Of a stretch of DNA of 64,000 bases, positions 18,667 through 51,715 are shown piece by piece. Both the position numbers and the translations under genes were made by a program. This stretch comes from an uncultured Candidatus Saccharibacteria bacterium. Lineage in GTDB: Bacteria > Patescibacteriota > Minisyncoccia > Phycocordibacterales > UBA2100. Where the stretch lies: contig CAYNRJ010000002.1 of assembly GCA_964399865.1 (NCBI GenBank), positions 97,108 to 161,107 on the forward strand. Reading direction: 5' to 3'. Position 1 is the stretch's first letter, and every line of letters starts with the position of its first letter. Under the pieces are notes generated by a model. That model did no database searches. It was given only the letters and a program-made list of their open reading frames with translations, and was not told where the DNA came from.

Positions 18667-19652
18667 TTACTTCGATGCGCACCAAAAGGATAGTAAGAAT
18701 TCTTGTTAAGACTGGACTCCTCCTCGCGATCGGTGTGAGTATCGGTATATATGTGGCAAAGGGTAAGGGAATTGATGAGTGTGGCAAAGCATATACATTC
18801 CTGAATCAAAGCGCGATTTGCGCCGAGCAAGTGATCTCGAAGACTGCGTACACGAAGACCCAGCGCGAGATCAGTCAATATGTCGAAACTGCACGATTGA
18901 CCGGAAAGGCAAAGGAGGTAAGTGTATATTTTCGTGATTTGAATAATGGCCCCGTATTTGGACTTAATGAACTGGACGAATTTGTCCCTGCATCACTCCT
19001 GAAGTTACCGCTTGCCTTCGTGTACCTTACGGTTGCAGAAATACAACCTGGATTACTCGCTCAACGAATTCAATATACAGCCGCCGATACTACAGCAGTG
19101 CAGTATTTCAAGGGCATTCAAACGGTCCATGCCGGGGAAGAGCATACAGTGGAAGAGCTATTGGAGCTCATGCTGACGTATTCTGACAATAATGCGCAAG
19201 AACTGCTGTCGAGCTATTTAGAGACCGACTCGAGCGCCATCGATGTTCGTGCGGAAATATTCAACGAACTTGGTCTTACGGATCCCGAGACCGCAATGGA
19301 AGAAAGTTTGAGCGTACGCGGATACGCAGCACTTTTCCGTCTGTTATATAACGCATCTTTCTTAAATGCCGAACAGTCGGAAAAAGTCTTGGGATGGCTG
19401 TCGCGCTCGGATTTTAAAGAGGGGCTCACAGCAGGAGTACCCGAGGGCATTATCGTTGCTCATAAATTCGGGGAACGCTCGGCAATGGATTCAGATGAAC
19501 GACAGTTACACGATTGCGGCATCGTCTACTATCCCGAAAATCCGTATCTGTTGTGCATTATGACAAAGGGCGACAATTGGGAAGAGCTTGCGAAGGTGAT
19601 TGCCGATATTTCCCGTACGATATTTGAAGAAGTGAATTCACGTAGGATATGA
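18663..19652 (+). CDS. serine hydrolase with class A beta-lactamase / DD-peptidase fold, N-terminal membrane anchor
   Basis: Motifs S-x-x-K (PASLLKLP), SDN (YSDNNA) and a K-T-G-like motif (VAHKFGE) are present. The start overlaps the giant gene stop (ATGA). Confidence 0.7.
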   Translation: MITSMRTKRIVRILVKTGLLLAIGVSIGIYVAKGKGIDECGKAYTFLNQSAICAEQVISKTAYTKTQREISQYVETARLTGKAKEVSVYFRDLNNGPVFGLNELDEFVPASLLKLPLAFVYLTVAEIQPGLLAQRIQYTAADTTAVQYFKGIQTVHAGEEHTVEELLELMLTYSDNNAQELLSSYLETDSSAIDVRAEIFNELGLTDPETAMEESLSVRGYAALFRLLYNASFLNAEQSEKVLGWLSRSDFKEGLTAGVPEGIIVAHKFGERSAMDSDERQLHDCGIVYYPENPYLLCIMTKGDNWEELAKVIADISRTIFEEVNSRRI

Positions 19653-21760
19653 GAAAGCACGATCTCAATGCAGTGGCGGCAATACTATTTATAGGTGCAA
19701 TTTTTCTTGCGCCGCAGTTTGCGGATGCGGGTGTTATCGGCCGACCGGCGAATAATCTCGGTCTCATAGGGTATTGGAGTTTTAATGAAGGAACAACGAC
19801 CAGCGTCGGAGATTTCAGTGGTTTTGGAAACACGGGCACCGCGTCTACCTCTATGTGGACCTCGGGTAGAAGAGGTACGGCGCTCAACTTCAATGGTACC
19901 AACCAGTACGCGACAATGTCGACTTTCAATCAATCTCTTTTACCTGCCACTTTTGTGTCATGGGTATACGTACCGACGGCAGCCGACCTGCAGGCATGCC
20001 GGGGGGTCGTCTTCTCGAGAGGCACGAGCGTGTCAGGTATTAACGTAGGAGCATGCTCTGCTTCGACGAAGCTCGGGTATCACTGGAATGGTGCTGCGAA
20101 TACATGGGGGTGGACTGGAGGACCTCCCGTTCCTATCGGCGAATGGTTCCTTGCAGCGCTTGTTGTTGAATCTAGTCAGGCAACGATGTATGCAATAACC
20201 GCAAGTGGGGCAACTTCGACTGCAAATGGAGTCGCCCACACTGCTTCGACGATAAATGACCTCAAGATTGGCGTTGATGAAACGTTGGATCGTTATTTTG
20301 AAGGAAAGATAGATGAGGCGCGTATTTATAATCGTGCATTAACCCAGGCAGAATTGCAGGTGTTGTATCAATCTGGAGCTGCCGTTCTCAATAAATCTCA
20401 TACTTCCGTCGCGGAGGGTCTTGTCGGATGGTGGACCATGGATGGTCAGGAGATGTCTATGAATATCGGGGACAAAAGTGGTAATGGGAATAACGGGTAT
20501 CTCGTTAACGCGCCGACGTCAACAGCTCAGATTGTCGGCAAAATTGGTTCCGCGCTCTCCTTTGATGGAATAGATGACTATGTGATCGTGAACGATAGTG
20601 ACAGCTTAGATACAGCAAACGGCCTAACGGTCTCAGCGTGGATATACGATAGTAATGATGGACAGCAACGCCACTCGATAAATAAAGACAACACCTCGCA
20701 AAGAAATTGGATAATCAGGCGTCAAACGGATACCACAGGTAATTACCACATGTGGAATTCCGGGGGTACTTTGCGTCAGTTTGTGCCCGCGAACAGTTGG
20801 AAAATTAATGAATGGTTCCACGTGGTGTTTACGGCTGCTGTTAGTGGGTCAACGATTAATCTTGAGGTGTTCATTAACGGAGTTTCTGTCGGAACAGATT
20901 CATTCGCAGGTACGGCTCTGCAAACGGGTACTTCGCGGATGCATATGGGCATAGACGCGCCCGGCGGTAGTGAAAAACGCCAACGTCTTGACGACGTACG
21001 TGTGTACAATCGAGCGGTTTCTGCAGCGGAGGCGAAACAAATATATAACGAAAGCGCCGGAGCTAAAATAAACGTGAGTACGGCAACAGGATCTTTAAAT
21101 GACGGACTTGTCGGATATTGGTCATTCAACGGTCCAGATGTCACAGATACAGCAATCTACGATCGTTCTCCGAGCGGGGTCAATAGTTATTTTGTTAATA
21201 GTGCAACATCAACGGCAAAAACTCCGGGGGTCATAGGACAAGCGCTCAATTTTAATGGCGTTAACAATTTTGCATCGCTGCTCACAGACTTCAGCGAGCC
21301 GTCGAATCTCACTCTTTCTATATGGTTTAAGACCACCTCTACCGCTTCAAAGAATGCACTTTTCGGTCAGGCGAATGTGCAACCGCCAACCGGGGCGAGC
21401 TCATTCGTGCCGCCGCTATGGGTATTGTCTGACGGAAGAGTGCGAGCAGAACTTTGGACCGGAGGCGCGGGGCAAATTTATTCATCAAGTGGCTACAACG
21501 ACGGGCATTGGCACATGGCCACTCTCGTTGCCACGACGACAATGCAATCTTTGTATGTGGATGGAGAATATGTCGGAAGTAGATCCGGTACTCTTAGTCA
21601 GAGCTGGTGGGTGTCCTCAACTATCGGCGCTGCGTATGTGAACTCCCGTGAGAGTCAGAGTGGGTGGGGCTACTTCAATGGATCGATAGATGAAGTGAGA
21701 TTCTATAACCGCGCACTGAGCGCTGCGGAGATTAAGCGACTCTACAATACAGGACAATGA
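19649..21760 (+). CDS. secreted protein with three LamG / concanavalin-A-like lectin domains
   Basis: Signal peptide MRKHDLNAVAAILFIGAIFLAPQFADA. Three repeats end in the LamG_3 signature (IDEARIYNRALTQAELQVLY, LDDVRVYNRAVSAAEAKQIY, IDEVRFYNRALSAAEIKRLY). The start overlaps the upstream stop (ATGA). Confidence 0.75.
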   Translation: MRKHDLNAVAAILFIGAIFLAPQFADAGVIGRPANNLGLIGYWSFNEGTTTSVGDFSGFGNTGTASTSMWTSGRRGTALNFNGTNQYATMSTFNQSLLPATFVSWVYVPTAADLQACRGVVFSRGTSVSGINVGACSASTKLGYHWNGAANTWGWTGGPPVPIGEWFLAALVVESSQATMYAITASGATSTANGVAHTASTINDLKIGVDETLDRYFEGKIDEARIYNRALTQAELQVLYQSGAAVLNKSHTSVAEGLVGWWTMDGQEMSMNIGDKSGNGNNGYLVNAPTSTAQIVGKIGSALSFDGIDDYVIVNDSDSLDTANGLTVSAWIYDSNDGQQRHSINKDNTSQRNWIIRRQTDTTGNYHMWNSGGTLRQFVPANSWKINEWFHVVFTAAVSGSTINLEVFINGVSVGTDSFAGTALQTGTSRMHMGIDAPGGSEKRQRLDDVRVYNRAVSAAEAKQIYNESAGAKINVSTATGSLNDGLVGYWSFNGPDVTDTAIYDRSPSGVNSYFVNSATSTAKTPGVIGQALNFNGVNNFASLLTDFSEPSNLTLSIWFKTTSTASKNALFGQANVQPPTGASSFVPPLWVLSDGRVRAELWTGGAGQIYSSSGYNDGHWHMATLVATTTMQSLYVDGEYVGSRSGTLSQSWWVSSTIGAAYVNSRESQSGWGYFNGSIDEVRFYNRALSAAEIKRLYNTGQ

Positions 21761-38939: not shown

Positions 38940-40073
38940 TTAGCGGATCTCAGCTCCGTACGTCGCTTTAGTCTCTGCCTCAAGCTTTTTATGTAGGGTA
39001 TCTATCTCAGCGTTGGTGAGGGTTTTGTCGCGGGAGCGATATACGATGCGATAGGTATAGCTGAGTTTCCCAGTGCCGAATTTCTTCTCATTCTCGAATT
39101 TATCCAAAAGCTTCACCTCCTCCACTACGCCGTCTCCCACGACCTCACGGATAAGATCAAAATAGTTGTTCGGCACGAAATCATTTTGCACAACAAACGA
39201 GATGTCTCGAACGATCGGTGGATATTTGCTCACCTCTTTATACTTTGTGCCAAGTTTCAATTGAGCTGTGACGCGCGGATCATCCGACCACAAGAGTCTG
39301 ATGTCGGGGAGTTCCATACTTGCTATTGCGAGTCGTTCAAGTCCGAATCCGAATGCCCAACCGTGGTACCCTTCGAGTCCGAAATTTTTCAGAACACTCT
39401 TTCTCGCCATGCCACATCCAAGCATCTCCACCCATTGTCCGTTGATCTCTGCTTCCATTTCAAAGCTAGGATCGGTGTAAGGGAAGTTGTGGTCGTAGAA
39501 TCGGAAGTTGATGTTTCCGAAGATGGCACGTGCGATTTCCGAGAGAGTATTCTTTAGATCCTCAGGCGTGATCGTTGCCTTGTCGTCGGGGCCGACGAGG
39601 AGGCCACCGAACTGATGAAAGACGTTCATGTGTCTGCTGTCGATCTCATCTTTTCGGTACACTTTTCCGTAACAGATGGTCCCGAGTGTCTCCTTATTCG
39701 CGATTCGCTTTTTTACATCCGGATGATTGAGGTAGTAGTACCAAAATACCGTATCATGCGTGCGAAGAACATGTTTTTCGTCGAGGTAATAGGTATCCGA
39801 TGGGCTCCGCGCTGGATGACCCTCGGGCATATTGAAGAGATCGAAAAGAATGTCTATAGATACGATCTCAGGAATATTTATGACATCAAAGTTTTCAAGA
39901 CTCTTCACTTTCGAAGCACGTGCAACTATCTCGGAGAGCGGGTTGCCCGGTGTGCGAGAGAGGTCCGGCATTGCAAGATATCGTTTAATTCGTTCTGAGT
40001 TCGAATCATTTTTTTTCTGCAACGCTTCTCGGAGCGTCTTTTCCTCGTCGCGTGGGATGAAATATTCAGTCAT
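38940..40073 (-). CDS. pheS: phenylalanyl-tRNA synthetase, alpha-type catalytic core fused to a C-terminal FDX-ACB anticodon-binding domain (monomeric, mitochondrial-like architecture)
   Basis: Class II motifs (FPYTDPSFE, GFGLERLA). The C-terminal ~95 aa (SKYPPIVRDISFVV...FDLIREVVGDGVVEEVKLLDKF...YRIVYRSRDKTLTNAEID) resemble the FDX-ACB domain of PheT-B8 / FARS2. No adjacent pheT. Confidence 0.85.
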   Translation of the reverse strand: MTEYFIPRDEEKTLREALQKKNDSNSERIKRYLAMPDLSRTPGNPLSEIVARASKVKSLENFDVINIPEIVSIDILFDLFNMPEGHPARSPSDTYYLDEKHVLRTHDTVFWYYYLNHPDVKKRIANKETLGTICYGKVYRKDEIDSRHMNVFHQFGGLLVGPDDKATITPEDLKNTLSEIARAIFGNINFRFYDHNFPYTDPSFEMEAEINGQWVEMLGCGMARKSVLKNFGLEGYHGWAFGFGLERLAIASMELPDIRLLWSDDPRVTAQLKLGTKYKEVSKYPPIVRDISFVVQNDFVPNNYFDLIREVVGDGVVEEVKLLDKFENEKKFGTGKLSYTYRIVYRSRDKTLTNAEIDTLHKKLEAETKATYGAEIR

Positions 40074-40140
40074 AACAGGAATTGAAGCATATTAATCGAT
40101 AATAGCAAGGTATATAGCCATATTTTACCCACATTCCCGC

Positions 40141-40169
40141 TTACTGTACGTGGTTTTTTCTGGTATACT
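40141..40169 (+). promoter_or_regulatory. putative sigma70 promoter of gyrB
   Basis: TTACTG-17 nt-TATACT about 15 nt upstream of the ATG. Confidence 0.35.
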
Positions 40170-40183
40170 ACAGAGAACAAAAC

Positions 40184-42253
40184 ATGGCTGAAAAGAAAGC
40201 GAAAAAAGACGATGCAGAAACCCCAAAGAAAGGGGCTTCGTCTTACAGTGCCCAGGACATCACCGTTCTAGAGGGTCTTGAGGCCGTGCGTCGCCGTCCG
40301 GGCATGTACATCGGCACGACCGGTCTTGATGGGCTTCATCACCTCATCTGGGAGATCTTCGATAACTCGCGCGACGAGGCAATGGGTGGTTTTTCAAACG
40401 ACATCGAGGTCGCACTCCTCCCTGACAACATGGTCCGAGTGGTAGACAATGGCCGTGGTATTCCCGTCGATATTCATCCGAAAACAAAATTATCAGCACT
40501 CGATACGATCATGACGACGCTTCACGCTGGAGGAAAATTCGGCGGTGAAGGCTACAAGGTCTCCGGCGGTCTCCACGGCGTCGGCGCATCGGTCGTCAAC
40601 GCTCTATCAACGTATACGCGTGTGGAAGTTCACCGGGATGGTGGGCAATACGTACAGGAATACAAGAACGGTGGTAAGGCTGTCGCGAAGGTCAAGAAGA
40701 TCGGCAGCTCCAAGCGTACCGGCACCATCACTGTCTTTCAGGCCGACCCCTCGATTTTCCCGCAAATTGAATACAATTGGGACCGTATCGTTTCGCACAT
40801 GCGCCAGCAGGCGTATCTCGTAAAAGGTTTGCGTATTTCCGTACTCGACCTCCGGCAGGCTGGAAAAGTGGATGCAGAAAAAGCATATTACCTACGCGAC
40901 TTAGCGCTCGATGCGCCCTCAATGACGTTTTATTTTGAAGGCGGACTTCGTTCACTCGTTGCATTCCAGAATCAATATCTTGAATCGATCCATAAAAACA
41001 TTTTCTACGTAGAAAAAGAGCAAGACGGAGTTGCGGTAGAAGTTGCCCTCCAATACGTCGATGATATTTCAACGCGTCTCTCAGCGTTTGCGAACAACAT
41101 CTACAACGCAGAAGGCGGCACGCATGTGACAGGATTTAAGACCGCCCTCACTCGCACTCTCAACAGCAACGCGAAAGGAGACTCGGGGAAAGAAGGGGAT
41201 TCGTTTACAGGCGACGATGTGCTCGAAGGTATTACTGCAGTTATTTCGGTAAAGATGCGCGAGGTGCAGTTTGAAGGACAGACCAAAGGGAAACTTGGTA
41301 GCGTCGAGGCTCGCGGAGCCGTGGAAACAGTCTTCGGCGAGGCGTTCTCAGCATTCCTCGAAGAACACCCAGACGATGCTCGCGCGATCATAGGTAAGGT
41401 CTCTCTTGCGATGAAGGCACGCAAAGCCGCGAAAGCTGCAAAAGAAAGCATCATGAGAAAAGGTGCACTCGATGGCCTCGCGCTCCCAGGTAAACTCGCT
41501 GACTGTCAGACAAAGGATGCTTCTGAATCCGAACTCTTCGTGGTGGAGGGAGATTCGGCAGGTGGCTCAGGCAAAATGGGTCGTGACCGACGCACGCAAG
41601 CTGTACTTCCACTTCGCGGAAAGATTCTCAACATCGAACGTGCTCGTCTCGACAAGATGCTCGGCTCCGAACAGATCAAAAATCTTGTTGTTGCGCTCGG
41701 CACTGCTATCGGTGACGTCTTTAATATTGAGAAGCTCCGCTACCACAAGATCATCATTGCAACAGATGCCGACGTCGACGGTGCGCACATCCGCACACTC
41801 CTTCTCACGCTCTTCTATCGCCATTTCAGACCAGTTATCGATGGAGGTTTCCTCTATATCGCTCAACCGCCTCTCTATAAGATCAGGAAAGGTAAAGAGG
41901 TTTTCTATGCGTACACCGACGAACAAAAGGTAAAGATCGCAGGAAAAGACACACCGCTTGAAGAAGTCACGGACGGGGAGGAAGAGCCGGCACCAGAAGA
42001 AGCGGAAGAGGCAGCGGGGAAAACGAAGAAGGCTGCCAAGATTTCTATTCAGCGTTACAAGGGTCTTGGAGAAATGAATCCAGAAGAGCTGTGGGAAACA
42101 ACAATGGACCCAGCGCGTCGCATTCTAAAACAGGTAGTGATTGAAGACGCACAGGAAGCCGACAAGATATTCGACATGCTTATGGGTACCGACGTACCGT
42201 CACGTCGATCATTCATCCAATCGCACGCAAAGGAGGCAACGCTAGATATTTAG
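40184..42253 (+). CDS. gyrB: DNA gyrase subunit B
   Basis: GHKL ATPase motifs, TOPRIM (EGDSAGG), C-terminal QRYKGLGEM. Confidence 0.95.
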   Translation: MAEKKAKKDDAETPKKGASSYSAQDITVLEGLEAVRRRPGMYIGTTGLDGLHHLIWEIFDNSRDEAMGGFSNDIEVALLPDNMVRVVDNGRGIPVDIHPKTKLSALDTIMTTLHAGGKFGGEGYKVSGGLHGVGASVVNALSTYTRVEVHRDGGQYVQEYKNGGKAVAKVKKIGSSKRTGTITVFQADPSIFPQIEYNWDRIVSHMRQQAYLVKGLRISVLDLRQAGKVDAEKAYYLRDLALDAPSMTFYFEGGLRSLVAFQNQYLESIHKNIFYVEKEQDGVAVEVALQYVDDISTRLSAFANNIYNAEGGTHVTGFKTALTRTLNSNAKGDSGKEGDSFTGDDVLEGITAVISVKMREVQFEGQTKGKLGSVEARGAVETVFGEAFSAFLEEHPDDARAIIGKVSLAMKARKAAKAAKESIMRKGALDGLALPGKLADCQTKDASESELFVVEGDSAGGSGKMGRDRRTQAVLPLRGKILNIERARLDKMLGSEQIKNLVVALGTAIGDVFNIEKLRYHKIIIATDADVDGAHIRTLLLTLFYRHFRPVIDGGFLYIAQPPLYKIRKGKEVFYAYTDEQKVKIAGKDTPLEEVTDGEEEPAPEEAEEAAGKTKKAAKISIQRYKGLGEMNPEELWETTMDPARRILKQVVIEDAQEADKIFDMLMGTDVPSRRSFIQSHAKEATLDI

Positions 42254-49912: not shown

Positions 49913-49987
49913 TTATCGCGGTTCTCACGCGCTGTTTGCGTGAGTGTGCAATAGCAAGCCCTGCGGGGCTAAAGTGGAGACACGGCA

Positions 49988-50662
49988 ATGAAGAACATCA
50001 GCGTAGGGGCGTTCATCCTGAGCGCTCTCATTCATCTGGCGGTCACGCTGTTCGTGATCGTCGCACTCTACGGGACTTTCGAGCTGGACTTCCGAATCTA
50101 TCTCTTCGGTATCAATATTCCTTCGCTCGTCTATCTGGTCCCGCTCGTCTTCCTGTCCTACTTCGCGCAGAGGAAGCTTTCTGAAGCGCGCGGTTTTGGG
50201 CGAGTGCTCGATCTTCTGATCTCGGTCCCGATGCTCATCGCGATTGTGGGGGTCATCCTCCTGTGGCTCGGCATTCCGTCCGTCGAGTCGGTCGCGAACG
50301 AGATCGGTTCGTGGGCGAACCACGTGGTTTCGACCGAACCGACCTCCTACAAGGTCGTCGTGGTCCTTCTCTTCGGCTTGGTGTCGCTGCTCGACGTGCT
50401 CGGGCGTGATATCGGGGGAGTTCGTCTCTCGCGTTCCCGCGTGTTCGGGAAGCGGCTGGACGATTCGATTCGGACCCGCATCGTGCCCCAGTTCGAGATC
50501 GCCGATCAGGGGGAGATCATCGTCGGCGGCGAGGTCATTCACGTGACACTGACCGACGAGCACAAGCGGAGGATTGCCCAGAGGATTGCCGGCACGCCCG
50601 GCCTTCCGAAGCCACCTCCGGTTTCGGCGCCGGCTCATGGTCCGACCACTAGCCCTCCGTAG
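49988..50662 (+). CDS. high-GC polytopic membrane protein with a Pro-rich C-terminus
   Basis: GGAGA ribosome-binding site. At least 4 TM helices. GC3-rich. Confidence 0.55.
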   Translation: MKNISVGAFILSALIHLAVTLFVIVALYGTFELDFRIYLFGINIPSLVYLVPLVFLSYFAQRKLSEARGFGRVLDLLISVPMLIAIVGVILLWLGIPSVESVANEIGSWANHVVSTEPTSYKVVVVLLFGLVSLLDVLGRDIGGVRLSRSRVFGKRLDDSIRTRIVPQFEIADQGEIIVGGEVIHVTLTDEHKRRIAQRIAGTPGLPKPPPVSAPAHGPTTSPP

Positions 50663-50742: not shown

Positions 50743-50770
50743 TTGACAAACGTTGATTTTAATGTACTAT
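50743..50770 (+). promoter_or_regulatory. consensus sigma70 promoter
   Basis: TTGACA-16 nt-TACTAT. Confidence 0.55.
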
Positions 50771-50848
50771 GTTAGCACTGTCGCGCATGATGCGCGAAGA
50801 GTTGTTTGACTTGACCCATGCCCCCAGCGTTGGGGCATAACTGGAGGA

Positions 50849-51145
50849 GTGAAAATGGCAGGAAATGGTAATAAGAAGGCACATGGTGCTCCGATTCCCA
50901 TGGAGTCGCGTACTGGCCAGACCTTTGGCCAGTCCAGCGACGTTGTCGAGGAGCGCATCCGCGTCGTGATCCGCGTCGGTCGCTTCTCGGCGGAGCTCGA
51001 GCCGGATCAGGTTCCTGACCGGCTGGCGGCGCGCATCATTAGCTACCTCAAGGCCGGCATGGCCGGTCCGGAGGAGCCCGCGCAGCTTCCGCCGCCGAAG
51101 ACCCCTGTTCCCAATACGGGCGGTGAACCGCGTGAGGACGAGTAG
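50849..51145 (+). CDS. high-GC small hypothetical protein
   Basis: GGAGGAG-N5-ATG. 98 aa. Confidence 0.45.
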   Translation: MKMAGNGNKKAHGAPIPMESRTGQTFGQSSDVVEERIRVVIRVGRFSAELEPDQVPDRLAARIISYLKAGMAGPEEPAQLPPPKTPVPNTGGEPREDE

Positions 51146-51148
51146 ATC

Positions 51149-51715
51149 ATGACAGCAGGTCATGGCGCATCCGTGCGTATTCCGCCGGGCGACGAACCCC
51201 TCATGAGGCTCGACGATCAGGTCGCAGAGGTGAGCTTTTCGAGGTTCATTGTCAGCGACATCGCGAACGTCGAGATTTCTCCGAAGGCCCGTGCGAAGCT
51301 CGCCACCAGTATGGCGGCTGCGCTGGATCCCGGCACAAGTGGGGCCATCGCCGACCGCGACCTTGCGGCAACAAGGTCGGGCGGAAAGCCCCTCGCATTT
51401 CGCGCTGAAGAGGAGATGAGAAGAATGAGCGGCGGTACTTCGCACACGGAATCCCACCACGAAGAGTCTCATGCCGCGAAGGGCGGGAGGACGAAGTGGA
51501 TCATCGTCTGGGGGATCATCATCCTCGCTGCGTTGGCCGCCCTGTACTTCTTCGCTCCCGGCGTGAAGTCAGGGGTCGATGGGTTCGTCGGCGGCCTCAC
51601 TTCGAACGTCGAGCGGGTCGGTAGTCCAAGTGTGGGGGACACCCCCGGCGTCACACCCTGCGACGCCCAGTGGTATCACTACCCGGACCACACTGCGACC
51701 TACTGGTGCAGGTGA
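51149..51715 (+). CDS. high-GC hypothetical protein with one central TM helix
   Basis: Follows 50849..51145 with a 3-nt gap. TM segment WIIVWGIIILAALAALYFF. Confidence 0.5.
   Translation: MTAGHGASVRIPPGDEPLMRLDDQVAEVSFSRFIVSDIANVEISPKARAKLATSMAAALDPGTSGAIADRDLAATRSGGKPLAFRAEEEMRRMSGGTSHTESHHEESHAAKGGRTKWIIVWGIIILAALAALYFFAPGVKSGVDGFVGGLTSNVERVGSPSVGDTPGVTPCDAQWYHYPDHTATYWCR

What the first reader, a model, noticed from the sequence alone, without database searches (positions are those of the whole stretch)
38940..40073. Monomeric, mitochondrial-type PheRS (alpha catalytic core fused to an FDX-ACB domain) with no pheT neighbour
Bacterial PheRS is (alpha-beta)2, with pheS-pheT co-transcribed. 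This pheS has a C-terminal ~95-aa extension strongly resembling the FDX-ACB anticodon-binding domain, which is otherwise the B8 domain of PheT or the C-terminus of monomeric mitochondrial FARS2. It is flanked by unrelated genes. A bacterial single-chain PheRS would imply loss of the beta subunit and its editing function.
Basis: partly seen in the sequence, partly recalled or inferred. Interest (0 to 1): 0.6.

Follow-up and report, generated by a model that had tools for sequence, protein, structure and literature searches.

The report
Single-chain mitochondrial-type PheRS in Parcubacteria
This gene encodes a one-piece phenylalanyl-tRNA synthetase of the kind previously known from mitochondria, and it appears to be the only PheRS of a large group of tiny-genome bacteria (Parcubacteria/CPR), which have dropped the large beta subunit and its proofreading domain that bacteria are thought always to have.

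Summary
Its best solved relatives are human mitochondrial FARS2, by sequence (E~1e-57) and by fold (TM 0.75 over the full length).

It belongs to a family of more than 6000 proteins confined to Parcubacteria/Paceibacteria. Median identity is 72%, higher than GyrB at 65%, and the gene lies next to gyrB in 125 of 160 loci.

I found no PheT body and no second PheS in 2.2 Mb from 164 loci, but a control shows this test is weak. Stronger evidence comes from the published tables for 17 Parcubacteria genomes (Nelson & Stegen 2015). PF01409 and FDX-ACB are each single-copy, pheS is a core gene (16/17) sitting beside gyrB, and no beta subunit (COG0072) is in the core list. One of those genomes is my locus L077, where the fused gene accounts for both domains.

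About 18% of loci keep a small PheT-N-terminal (B1/B2) ORF just upstream of the gene.

The amino-acid pocket is remodelled: Gln→Trp111 in the whole prokaryotic clade, and Glu→Gly156 coupled with D107 and H195 in this sub-clade.

I found no paper describing this enzyme in bacteria. Verdict: new bacterial member of a known kind. Monomeric state and enzyme activity are untested.

The parts
38940..40073 (-). Complete CDS (377 aa plus stop) of the FARS2-type single-chain phenylalanyl-tRNA synthetase
   Evidence: ORF list. Pfam PF01409 plus PF03147. NCBIfam pheS_mito 234.1 bits, SrmL 228.5, pheS 162.8. PDB best hits are FARS2 at E~1e-57. AF2 model matches FARS2 at TM 0.75.
39945..40073 (-). Short N-terminal helical region (aa 1-43). 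It replaces the ~85-100-aa coiled-coil tRNA-binding arm of canonical PheS.
   Evidence: AF2 secondary structure shows helices 9-19 and 24-34. The TIGR00468 alignment starts only at model position 51, and E. coli PheS aligns from about residue 108. Coordinates verified.
39261..39944 (-). Class II PheS catalytic core (aa 44-271) carrying motifs 2 and 3 and the Phe pocket
   Evidence: PF01409 E 7e-52. Bacterial PheS alpha chains superpose on this part only (TMt ~0.8). The conserved catalytic columns are retained.
39732..39764 (-). 'RTHDTVFWYYY' (aa 104-114). H106 and T108 are equivalent to FARS2 His119 and Ser121. D107 is specific to the Gly-type. W111 replaces the Gln (FARS2 Gln124) found in E. 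coli PheS and eukaryotic FARS2.
   Evidence: Column statistics: W111 is 100% in both Parcubacteria clades and in P0125, P0127 and P0129, against Q 93% in eukaryotes and Q in E. coli; D107 is 100% in Gly-type against T 100% in Asp-type. FARS2 numbering was derived from the alignment. The role of Gln124 comes from PMC3275996.
39603..39620 (-). Motif-2 strand 'FHQFGG' (aa 152-157). G156 replaces the acidic residue (FARS2 Glu159, E. coli FHQMEG).
   Evidence: G in 120/120 close homologs; D in 118/119 of the sister Parcubacteria clade; E or D in nearly all other family representatives.
39465..39491 (-). H195 plus 'FPYTDPS' (aa 195-203). These are the aromatic pocket residues (T. thermophilus F258/F260/V261 equivalents are F197/Y199/T200). 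H195 is the third member of the coupled D107/G156/H195 switch.
   Evidence: The role of F258/F260/V261, and of Tyr at the 260 site in eukaryotic cytosolic PheRS, comes from PMC3275996.
39333..39362 (-). Motif 3 region 'GWAFGFGLER' (aa 238-247). It includes A240, the specificity-determining Ala (E. coli A294, T. thermophilus A314), and the motif-3 Arg247.
   Evidence: A240, G242, G244 and R247 are invariant across the family. The role of Ala294/314 comes from PMC3275996.
39231..39260 (-). Inter-domain linker (aa 272-281). It is the presumed hinge for the closed-to-open domain swing known from FARS2.
   Evidence: It lies between the two Pfam domains. The model matches closed FARS2 (3CMQ, TM 0.75) better than the open tRNA-bound form (3TUP, TM 0.59). 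The hinge function is an inference.
38943..39230 (-). FDX-ACB (B8-type) anticodon-binding domain (aa 282-377)
   Evidence: PF03147 covers profile 1-94/94 at E 2.7e-21. It aligns to TIGR00472 PheT positions 697-798 and to the C-termini of PDB PheT chains. The model shows a beta-alpha-beta-beta-alpha-beta fold.
40074..40183 (.). 110-bp AT-rich divergent intergenic region between the PheRS gene and gyrB. It is presumed to hold both promoters.
   Evidence: Sequence read. The promoter role is an inference and was not tested.
40184..42253 (+). gyrB, the conserved neighbour that marks positional orthology across Parcubacteria
   Evidence: The 689-aa ORF has a GyrB-type sequence. A homolog lies next to the PheRS gene in 125 of 160 related loci, and also next to the Asp-type ortholog P0403.

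Best explanation
The gene encodes the housekeeping phenylalanyl-tRNA synthetase of a Parcubacteria (Patescibacteria/CPR) bacterium, built like mitochondrial FARS2. One polypeptide joins the class II PheS catalytic core to the FDX-ACB (PheT B8-type) anticodon-binding domain through a short hinge.

Inferred mechanism, by homology to FARS2: the core activates Phe with ATP. The FDX-ACB domain swings from a closed to an open position to read the GAA anticodon of tRNA-Phe. Phe is then transferred to A76. There is no beta subunit, no (alpha-beta)2 tetramer and no B3/B4 post-transfer editing.

In this lineage the canonical pheS-pheT pair has been replaced. The only remnant of PheT is a free-standing B1/B2 tRNA-binding ORF, kept immediately upstream of the gene in ~18% of related genomes but not in this window.

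Shown here: domain architecture, fold, family distribution, synteny, strong purifying selection, single-copy status of both domains in related genomes, and retention of the catalytic and Phe-pocket residues.

Inferred, not shown: monomeric state, Phe-tRNA-Phe activity, absence of pheT in this particular genome, and the consequences of the W111 and G156 pocket changes.
For: Architecture and fold.

Family: more than 6000 homologs. All 120 listed have PF01409 plus PF03147, are 365-400 aa, and every one that carries an organism name is from Patescibacteria. 186 relatives were found in GTDB species genomes; of the 80 best, nearly all come from Patescibacteria-type MAGs. The 55%-identical sister clade is also Parcubacteria.

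Essential-gene behaviour: median identity is 72%, against GyrB 64.7%, EF-Ts 49%, RpsB 49% and ThrRS 45% in the same loci, and the gene is next to gyrB in 125 of 160 loci. The Asp-type ortholog occupies the same gyrB slot, so the two types are orthologs and not paralogs.

No rival PheRS: there is one PheS-core hit per locus, and no PheT residues 170-600 in 2.23 Mb.

Published data for 17 Parcubacteria genomes: PF01409 is single-copy in 15 of 17 and FDX-ACB in 16 of 17. pheS/COG0016 is in the core in 16 of 17, with locus tags adjacent to gyrB, while COG0072/pheT is absent from the uncut core table that lists 12 synthetases. Genome C7867-002 is locus L077, which carries the fused Gly-type gene between tsf and gyrB.

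PheT relic: 30 loci have a 119-232-aa ORF directly 5' of the gene whose best model is PheT positions 41-151 (1-151 in L029), plus PF01588.

Catalytic residues retained: HPxR, R104, H106, motif-2 R140, F152-H153-Q154, F197/Y199/T200, A240, motif-3 R247.

A parallel in the same genome: its ThrRS also lacks the N-terminal editing region.
Against: The source genome beyond these 64 kb could not be searched, so a pheT elsewhere in this organism is excluded only by analogy with relatives.

The '0 pheT in 2.2 Mb' test has low power. Unlinked housekeeping genes appear only 0-8 times in the same loci, and rplT appears 0 times.

The B3_4 and B5 marker columns of the published table were cut off in the stored file. 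Four other synthetases were also not found in the core table by gene symbol.

The protein scores below the curated cutoffs of all three relevant NCBIfam models: pheS_mito 234 < 258, SrmL 228 < 300, pheS 163 < 237.

Two residues that line the amino-acid pocket in FARS2 (Gln124 and Glu159) are replaced by Trp111 and Gly156. This could in principle change substrate choice.

No biochemical data exist for any member.
Confidence: 0.82

Rival explanations
1. The enzyme is not strictly single-component. It works together with a reduced, split beta subunit: the free-standing PheT B1/B2 tRNA-binding protein, acting in trans as an extra tRNA-binding module. On this view the system is a pared-down two-gene PheRS rather than a FARS2-like monomer.
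For: 30 of 164 loci have the PheT-N-terminal ORF immediately 5' of the gene on the same strand, often 3-60 bp away. These ORFs are conserved (median 60% identity to each other) and match PheT positions 41-151 better than YtpR or TapR.
Against: More than 80% of loci, including this window, have no such ORF nearby, and none was detected anywhere in the 64 kb. FARS2 needs no partner (PMC3275996). The ORF may sit elsewhere in the genome, but that was not testable.
Confidence: 0.2
2. The gene is a PheS-related paralog of unknown function (a 'mystery ligase' like NCBIfam SrmL) that coexists with a canonical pheS-pheT elsewhere in the genome.
For: It scores 228.5 bits on the SrmL model and is below the pheS_mito cutoff. 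Relatives occur in ordinary bacteria that probably have pheST: an Oligoflexia MAG (P0125) and P0129, which sits in a typical bacterial context. The pocket residues W111 and G156 depart from the PheRS consensus.
Against: PF01409 is single-copy in 15 of 17 Parcubacteria genomes and FDX-ACB in 16 of 17, including a complete genome, and in C7867-002 the fused gene accounts for both. No beta subunit is in the core table. Conservation exceeds that of GyrB. Only 3 of 83 family representatives are true SrmL, and the query is not one of them. The sister Parcubacteria clade passes the pheS_mito cutoff (264 > 258).
Confidence: 0.06
3. The enzyme has changed amino-acid specificity. The remodelled pocket (Trp111 for Gln, Gly156 for Glu/Asp, D107, H195) would make it charge a Phe analogue or another aromatic substrate instead of Phe.
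For: Both FARS2 residues reported to hydrogen-bond the meta-OH of m-Tyr (Gln124 and Glu159; PMC3275996) are replaced. The changes are 100% fixed within the clade.
Against: If this is the only PheRS, Phe charging is indispensable. The aromatic sandwich (F197/Y199), T200 and the specificity-determining Ala240 are retained. The Gly-type and Asp-type are positional orthologs. The T107/D156/D195 to D107/G156/H195 change is fully coupled, which looks like compensation rather than loss.
Confidence: 0.05
4. The gene is a recent horizontal acquisition from a eukaryote or a virus, or a binning or assembly contaminant, and not a native, ancient Parcubacteria gene.
For: The closest characterised relatives are eukaryotic organellar enzymes. 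FARS2-like genes also occur on jumbo-phage-like and giant-virus-like contigs.
Against: Parcubacteria sequences form a 100%-bootstrap clade outside the eukaryote/virus clade. Synteny with gyrB, tsf, rpsB, thrS and dnaE is conserved across candidate phyla. GC content is the same as the surroundings. An identical gene with the same neighbours occurs on independent contigs.
Confidence: 0.03

Closest known systems
Mitochondrial/organellar phenylalanyl-tRNA synthetase (human FARS2, yeast MSF1; PDB 3CMQ, 3TUP; TIGR00469 pheS_mito; 'PheRS-M')
   Same: The two-domain architecture is identical: PheS core, short hinge, C-terminal FDX-ACB. Size is similar without the transit peptide. The whole chain superposes (TM 0.75, rmsd 3.5 Å, 31-32% identity). 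There is no coiled-coil arm and no editing domain. Motif 2, motif 3, the FP[F/Y]T pocket and the specificity Ala are shared.
   Different: It is encoded in a bacterial chromosome as an apparently native, vertically inherited gene next to gyrB. It has no targeting peptide and lacks the ~35-aa insertion that splits the FARS2 alignment. Pocket residues Gln124 and Glu159 are replaced by Trp111 and Gly156. It is below the TIGR00469 cutoff (234 against 258). It forms a separate clade from eukaryotic sequences.
Canonical bacterial (alpha-beta)2 PheRS (PheS/PheT; E. coli 3PCO, T. thermophilus 1PYS)
   Same: The catalytic core is homologous to PheS (E~1e-31, TMt ~0.8). The C-terminal domain is homologous to PheT domain B8. 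The relic upstream ORFs in relatives are homologous to PheT B1/B2.
   Different: There is no separate beta subunit, no B3/B4 editing site, no B5, no B6/B7 catalytic-like module and no alpha N-terminal coiled coil. B8 is fused in cis to alpha. There is no pheS-pheT operon. It is below the TIGR00468 cutoff (163 against 237).
NCBIfam NF051887 'PheS-related mystery ligase SrmL'
   Same: SrmL is a bacterial protein of ~350 aa that aligns over both the core and the C-terminal domain (query aa 60-366 against model positions 31-344 of 349; 228.5 bits).
   Different: The query is below the 300-bit cutoff. Only 3 of 83 family representatives are true SrmL (best E 1.9e-124) and they are not the Parcubacteria clade. 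The name implies SrmL has an unknown role, whereas the Parcubacteria protein is the only PF01409 protein in its genomes.
Virus-encoded single-chain PheRS-like genes (jumbo-phage-like and giant-virus-like contigs)
   Same: They share the PheS plus FDX-ACB architecture at 345-381 aa.
   Different: Of the virus-contig proteins, only P0177 was placed in the tree, and it falls in the eukaryote/virus clade; P0133, the representative of P0279's cluster, passes the pheS_mito cutoff. The family representatives checked in the eukaryote/virus clade have Gln at the 111 site and Glu or Asp at 156. Their genomic context is viral, not cellular.

Membership tests
FARS2-type (mitochondrial-type) single-chain PheRS | Class II PheS catalytic core (PF01409) with motif 2 and motif 3 Arg and the Phe pocket | tested here: met
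   PF01409 E 7e-52. R140, F152-H153-Q154, F197/Y199/T200, A240 and R247 are conserved.
FARS2-type (mitochondrial-type) single-chain PheRS | FDX-ACB (B8-type) anticodon-binding domain fused in cis to the C-terminus of the core | tested here: met
   PF03147 covers profile 1-94/94 at aa 282-377, E 2.7e-21.
FARS2-type (mitochondrial-type) single-chain PheRS | Whole-chain fold equivalent to solved FARS2 | tested here: met
   AF2 model with pLDDT 89.8. Foldseek against 3CMQ and 5MGH gives E~3e-35, TMq 0.75, ~390 aligned columns.
FARS2-type (mitochondrial-type) single-chain PheRS | Score above the curated family HMM cutoff (TIGR00469, 258.35 bits) | tested here: not met
   234.1 bits. The orthologous Asp-type Parcubacteria representative P0121 passes at 264.3 bits. 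The model was built for eukaryotic sequences (my own recollection of the TIGRFAM description, not checked here).
FARS2-type (mitochondrial-type) single-chain PheRS | No beta subunit and no editing domain in the same compartment or genome | tested here: inconclusive
   Absent from the 64-kb window and from 2.2 Mb of related loci, but that test has low power. Published tables show PF01409 and FDX-ACB single-copy in 15-16 of 17 relatives and no COG0072 in the core. The fused gene accounts for both domains in C7867-002 = L077. The source genome itself was not searchable.
FARS2-type (mitochondrial-type) single-chain PheRS | Active as a monomer | not testable with these tools
   Inference from homology only. 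Needs SEC-MALS or native MS.
FARS2-type (mitochondrial-type) single-chain PheRS | Charges tRNA-Phe with phenylalanine | not testable with these tools
   Inferred from retained catalytic and pocket residues and from its being the only PF01409 protein.
Canonical bacterial PheS alpha subunit (TIGR00468) | Score above the curated cutoff (237.45 bits) and an N-terminal coiled-coil arm | tested here: not met
   162.8 bits, with the alignment starting at model position 51. Only 43 residues precede the core.
Canonical bacterial PheS alpha subunit (TIGR00468) | Partner pheT gene (usually adjacent) | tested here: not met
   No pheT next to the gene in the window or in any of 164 related loci.
SrmL, PheS-related mystery ligase (NF051887) | Score above the curated cutoff (300 bits) | tested here: not met
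   228.5 bits. True SrmL members exist among the representatives (3 of 83, best E 1.9e-124), and the query, scanned in the same call, did not reach that level on either model.

The most novel reading that the evidence does not exclude
The alpha-core/B8 fusion that defines mitochondrial PheRS was not invented in eukaryotes. It arose in bacteria (Parcubacteria-like CPR lineages, or the viruses that carry the same enzyme) as a genome-reduction solution. It was then acquired by the early eukaryote, where it replaced the alphaproteobacterial (alpha-beta)2 enzyme in organelles. In parallel, the Parcubacteria enzyme compensates for the lost editing domain by making the pocket's polar wall hydrophobic (Gln→Trp111, Glu→Gly156). 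This would exclude Tyr and m-Tyr at the synthetic site, giving fidelity without proofreading.
Probability: 0.2. Interest if true: 0.85.

Novelty: new member of a known kind. Interest (0 to 1): 0.6.

Why it matters
The review literature states that the (alpha-beta)2 organisation of PheRS is conserved in all known prokaryotes, and that mitochondrial PheRS is the only monomeric enzyme with a class II core (PMC3275996). This result suggests that an entire, very large bacterial radiation uses the single-chain form as its only PheRS.

If that holds, it has several consequences.
- It overturns the textbook generalisation.
- It provides a free-living or episymbiotic bacterial system without PheRS editing, alongside a ThrRS that also lacks its editing region. 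That makes it a natural experiment in translational fidelity under genome reduction.
- It supplies the missing prokaryotic relatives needed to test where mitochondrial FARS2 came from.
- It explains an annotation gap. NCBI records leave these proteins as 'hypothetical protein' because they fall below every curated cutoff, while marker-gene schemes count the FDX-ACB domain as 'pheT'.
- It offers very compact PheRS scaffolds (~377 aa) with natural pocket variants, which could be useful for engineering.

Tried and rejected
**Direct search for pheT in the same genomes.** This was not possible. I had no CPR PheT sequence to seed search for homologous proteins, and an E. coli seed would return only enterobacterial hits in the top 120, so I did not try it.

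**Statistical route.** I enlarged the sample to 2.23 Mb and found no PheT body. The control with unlinked housekeeping genes (gatA 3, gatC 1, murD 2, dut 2, cca 8, rplT/rpmI 0) shows P(0 | present) is roughly 0.1-0.3. I therefore treat this result only as weak support.

**Operon shortcut.** I looked for the infC-rpmI-rplT-pheST arrangement, but no rplT or rpmI was in any held sequence.

**Literature.** All ten full-text searches found no description of a bacterial or CPR FARS2-type PheRS. The terms covered monomeric PheRS, PheRS-M, SrmL, FDX-ACB, pheT combined with Patescibacteria or CPR, and Parcubacteria combined with PheRS. PMC5370408 notes only that many CPR PheRS-beta lack the B2 domain.

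**Paralogy of the Gly-type and Asp-type.** I considered this because Yanofsky- and Liptonbacteria names occur in both hit lists. I rejected it because the Asp-type gene sits in the same gyrB/thrS/dnaE slot.

**Long family members as possible editing-domain fusions.** They turned out to be fusions to AlaRS, TACO1 or a methyltransferase, or to have unannotated N-terminal extensions. None carries B3/B4.

**Deposited phage genomes.** Only canonical PheS cores were found, with no FARS2-type hit.

**Oligoflexia relative.** Its gene context said nothing about whether pheST coexists with it.

**Active-site geometry.** The proposed compensation by D107 and H195 for G156 rests on covariation alone.
Full report
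**Observation.** window:38940-40073 (minus strand) is an intact ATG-initiated ORF of 377 aa. Pfam finds the PheRS class II core (PF01409, aa 44-271, E 7e-52). It also finds a complete FDX-ACB domain (PF03147, aa 282-377, profile positions 1-94 of 94, E 2.7e-21, 76 bits against a 31-bit cutoff). The C-terminus also aligns to the last 100 positions of the bacterial PheT model. In the PDB, the six best sequence matches are all human mitochondrial PheRS (FARS2; E 4e-57 to 1e-55) and cover both domains. Bacterial PheS alpha chains match only aa 45-272 (E~1e-31), and PheT chains match only aa 276-376. Neighbours are a GT2 glycosyltransferase downstream and a divergent gyrB upstream. tsf, rpsB, a prfA-like gene and tRNA-Thr lie further downstream of the gene on the minus strand (lower window coordinates), beyond the glycosyltransferase. 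None of the long ORFs in the 64 kb is a PheT.

**What organism and family.** The protein is identical to a database entry seen on a 263,858-bp contig. It has more than 6000 homologs, and the 120 best are all 365-400 aa with PF01409 plus PF03147 at 73-92% identity. Every hit that carries an organism name is from Patescibacteria (Nomura-, Giovannoni-, Zambryski-, Doudnabacteria, Paceibacterota, Minisyncoccia). NCBI records call them 'hypothetical protein' and JGI calls them 'PheRS alpha chain'. A scan of GTDB species genomes found 186 relatives. Of the 80 best (68-76% identity), nearly all are from Parcubacteria-type MAGs, including single contigs of 1.21 Mb and 813 kb. A JGI metagenome scan added 80 more loci. 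The nearest 50%-cluster representative (P0121, 55% identity) is also Parcubacteria. Across 1.84 billion representative proteins, only 221 reach E ≤ 1e-30, so at 50% clustering this is a compact family.

**Native, ancient and strongly constrained.** In 160 related loci, gyrB lies next to the gene in 125. Median identity to the window protein is 72% for this gene, against 64.7% for GyrB, ~49% for EF-Ts and RpsB, 53% for DnaE and 45% for ThrRS. GC content matches the surroundings. An identical gene with the same neighbours occurs on independent assemblies.

**Two Parcubacteria sub-clades.** They differ at one motif-2 position: Gly in 120/120 of the query clade and Asp in 118/119 of the P0121 clade. 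The same candidate-phylum names appear in both hit lists, so I tested whether they are co-resident paralogs. They are not. The Asp-type gene of a Yanofskybacteria MAG sits in the same slot (PheRS→gyrB→secE-nusG-rplK … short thrS-dnaE). The two types are therefore positional orthologs.

**Is it the only PheRS?** The source genome beyond the window could not be read.
- *My own scan.* tblastn with E. coli PheS and PheT against the window plus 163 loci (2.23 Mb) found exactly one PheS core per locus and no match to PheT residues 170-600 (B3/B4, B5, B6/B7). A control shows this is weak evidence. Unlinked housekeeping genes turn up only 0-8 times in the same loci (gatC 1, murD 2, dut 2, gatA 3, cca 8, rplT/rpmI 0).
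- *Published tables.* Stronger evidence comes from the supplementary tables of Nelson & Stegen 2015 (PMC4508563), which cover 17 Parcubacteria genomes including the complete RAAC4 genome. In their Pfam single-copy table, tRNA-synt_2d occurs once in 15 of 17 genomes, and FDX-ACB (which they labelled 'pheT') once in 16 of 17. Their core-ortholog table covers clusters in at least 13 of 17 genomes, and the stored file is not cut. [quoted passage not shown] The next entry alphabetically is phosphoglycerate kinase. No beta subunit, 'pheT' or COG0072 appears, although 12 synthetases are listed.
- *The link to my data.* Their genome C7867-002 (LFCL01) is my locus L077. It carries the full-length Gly-type fused gene (68% identity) in the order prfA-rpsB-tsf-PheRS-gyrB. 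In that genome the fused gene alone therefore accounts for the single PF01409 and the single FDX-ACB. That leaves no separate PheS of either bacterial or archaeal type, and no B8-bearing PheT.
- *Gaps.* The B3_4 and B5 columns of their table were lost when the file was stored, and the paper's text never mentions PheRS. Taken together, I consider loss of the canonical beta subunit in this lineage well supported but not proven for this genome.

**A relic of PheT.** In 30 of 164 loci, a 119-232-aa ORF lies immediately 5' of the PheRS gene on the same strand. It is a PF01588 tRNA_bind domain. Its best NCBIfam model is PheT itself, at positions 41-151 (93-114 bits) and positions 1-151 in L029. That is ahead of YtpR and TapR, both of which are below their cutoffs. 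These ORFs are ~60% identical to each other. None was detectable in this window. So the tRNA-contacting ends of PheT survive in parts of this lineage: B8 is fused to alpha, and B1/B2 is a separate small protein. The editing and catalytic-like middle is gone.

**Active site.** I aligned 119 Gly-type sequences, 116 Asp-type sequences, 32 representatives of the eukaryote/virus clade and E. coli PheS.
- *Retained.* HPxR (H86, R89), R104, H106, motif-2 R140, F152-H153-Q154, the aromatic pocket F197-P-Y199-T200, E205, E216, G219, G221, W239-A240-F241-G242 and motif-3 E246-R247 are all retained. A240 is the specificity-determining Ala (E. coli A294, T. thermophilus A314). Tyr at the second aromatic position is what eukaryotic cytosolic PheRS has, and Thr200 is what FARS2 has (PMC3275996).
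- *Trp111.* It replaces the Gln of E. coli PheS and eukaryotic FARS2 (Gln124, by the numbering of the alignment) in the whole prokaryotic clade.
- *Gly156.* It replaces FARS2 Glu159 (Asp in the sister clade).
- *Reported role.* In FARS2, Gln124 and Glu159 are the residues reported to hydrogen-bond the meta-OH of m-Tyr.
- *Coupled switch.* The Gly-type differs from the Asp-type by a fully coupled switch: T107/D156/D195 becomes D107/G156/H195, with each state 100% fixed in its clade. I read this as a compensated relocation of charge and not as a loss of function. That reading rests on covariation only.

**Structure.** An AF2 model built with a 40-sequence MSA has mean pLDDT 89.8 and pTM 0.84. 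It superposes on full-length closed-state FARS2 (3CMQ, 5MGH: E~3e-35, TMq 0.75, rmsd 3.5 Å). It fits the open tRNA-bound FARS2 less well (3TUP, TM 0.59). On bacterial PheS it fits only through the core (TMq 0.53).

**Relatives.** In an NJ tree of 61 full-length family members rooted on E. coli PheS:
- The Gly-type clade and all Parcubacteria each have 100% bootstrap support.
- They group at 88% with a few other prokaryote-type sequences: P0125 from an Oligoflexia MAG, P0127, and P0129 from an ordinary bacterial context.
- The deeper split from the large sister clade is weak, at 54-60%.
- The sister clade is eukaryotic (Vitrella, Pteridium, Euglena). Unexpectedly, it also includes a short protein (P0177) from a virus-like contig.
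- Three short FARS2-like proteins lie on virus-like contigs: a 341-kb jumbo-phage-like scaffold, and 253-kb and 705-kb giant-virus-like contigs.
- 72 of 83 representatives reach the pheS_mito score level. Only 3 are true SrmL.
- The query falls below the cutoffs of pheS_mito, SrmL and pheS, which explains the 'hypothetical protein' labels.

**Mechanism (inferred).** The enzyme most likely works as FARS2 does. The core makes Phe-AMP. The FDX-ACB domain rotates about the aa 272-281 hinge to bind the GAA anticodon. Phe is then transferred to tRNA-Phe, with no post-transfer editing. Where present, the B1/B2 protein may add tRNA affinity in trans. The hydrophobic replacement of the two m-Tyr-contacting residues suggests that discrimination against hydroxylated analogues may have moved to the synthetic site. 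This is a hypothesis and not a result. The same genome's ThrRS (window:59113-60363, minus strand; 416 aa; TIGR00418 492.7 bits, aligning from model position 167) also lacks its N-terminal region, which by my own knowledge of ThrRS holds the TGS and editing domains. That suggests a general shedding of editing modules.

**Novelty.** Ten full-text searches found no description of a bacterial FARS2-type PheRS. The 2010 structural review states that the heterotetramer is conserved in all known prokaryotes and that mitochondrial PheRS is the only monomeric class II core enzyme. The 2015 Parcubacteria genome paper tabulated the two domains as 'pheS' and 'pheT' without noticing that they are one gene. 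The enzyme type itself is well known, so I rate this a new (bacterial, lineage-wide) member of a known kind.

**Main caveats.** There is no whole-genome check of the source MAG. Oligomeric state and activity are untested. The deep phylogeny is weak. The literature search was limited to open-access full text.

Noticed in passing
L046:9591-9995(+), L029:2202-2756(+), L061:9585-10004(+), L014:9525-9956(+) and 26 other loci (not in the window): A small ORF (119-232 aa) lies immediately 5' of the PheRS gene in ~18% of related loci. It is a free-standing PheT N-terminal B1/B2 (PF01588) domain. It matches PheT model positions 41-151 (1-151 in L029) better than YtpR or TapR. It appears to be a relic or trans-acting remnant of the lost beta subunit.
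   Followed up: partly
window:59113-60363(-): The ThrRS is only 416 aa. It passes the TIGR00418 cutoff but aligns from model position 167, so the N-terminal region (TGS and editing domains, by my own knowledge of ThrRS) is missing. This is a second editing-less synthetase in the same genome. A 402-aa ortholog with only the core and anticodon domains sits next to dnaE in L166.
   Followed up: partly
window:39603-39620, 39732-39764, 39489-39491 (aa 156, 107, 195): There is a fully coupled three-residue switch between two orthologous Parcubacteria sub-clades: D107/G156/H195 (query clade, 100%) against T107/D156/D195 (sister clade, 100%). Trp111 replaces the otherwise conserved pocket Gln in the whole prokaryotic clade.
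   Followed up: partly
L172 (341-kb ENA scaffold), L171 (253-kb JGI contig), L170 (705-kb NCBI contig JAWVHG010000010.1): Single-chain PheS plus FDX-ACB genes of 348-381 aa sit on virus-like contigs. One is jumbo-phage-like (SNF2 helicase, phage metallopeptidase, PcfJ, dense small ORFs). Two are giant-virus-like (thymidine kinase, MC1, ankyrin, another aaRS). Viruses therefore also carry the one-piece PheRS.
   Followed up: no
L175:8001-9371: The FARS2-like protein P0131 (456 aa) lies beside an F-type ATPase operon, and its gene does not translate to the recorded protein with table 11. This suggests a recoded lineage (possibly Gracilibacteria/Absconditabacteria) that also uses a single-chain PheRS.
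   Followed up: no
window:343-18666(+): A giant ORF of 6107 aa is followed by a Laminin_G_3/ConA-like protein (19649-21760). In my experience this is typical of CPR surface proteins. It has no homologs covering at least half its length in the related loci.
   Followed up: no
window:50001-52000: There is a local GC spike (0.59 against ~0.50 elsewhere), with overlapping ORFs of more than 180 aa on both strands (49925-50638 minus strand with 49988-50662 plus strand; 50759-51472 minus strand with 51149-51715 plus strand). There is no Rfam hit. The cause is unexplained.
   Followed up: no
window:38940-40073 and homologs P0019, P0020, P0039, P0056 and others: There is an annotation gap. The family scores below the curated cutoffs of pheS_mito, pheS and SrmL, so NCBI records name it 'hypothetical protein'. 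Marker-gene schemes count its FDX-ACB domain as 'pheT' (Nelson & Stegen Table S2), which hides the loss of the beta subunit.
   Followed up: yes
window:33664-34650(+): A release-factor-1-like protein scores below the prfA cutoffs (371.7 against 400 bits) and aligns from about model position 38-47, so it is N-terminally short. It is conserved in the same position in L077.
   Followed up: no
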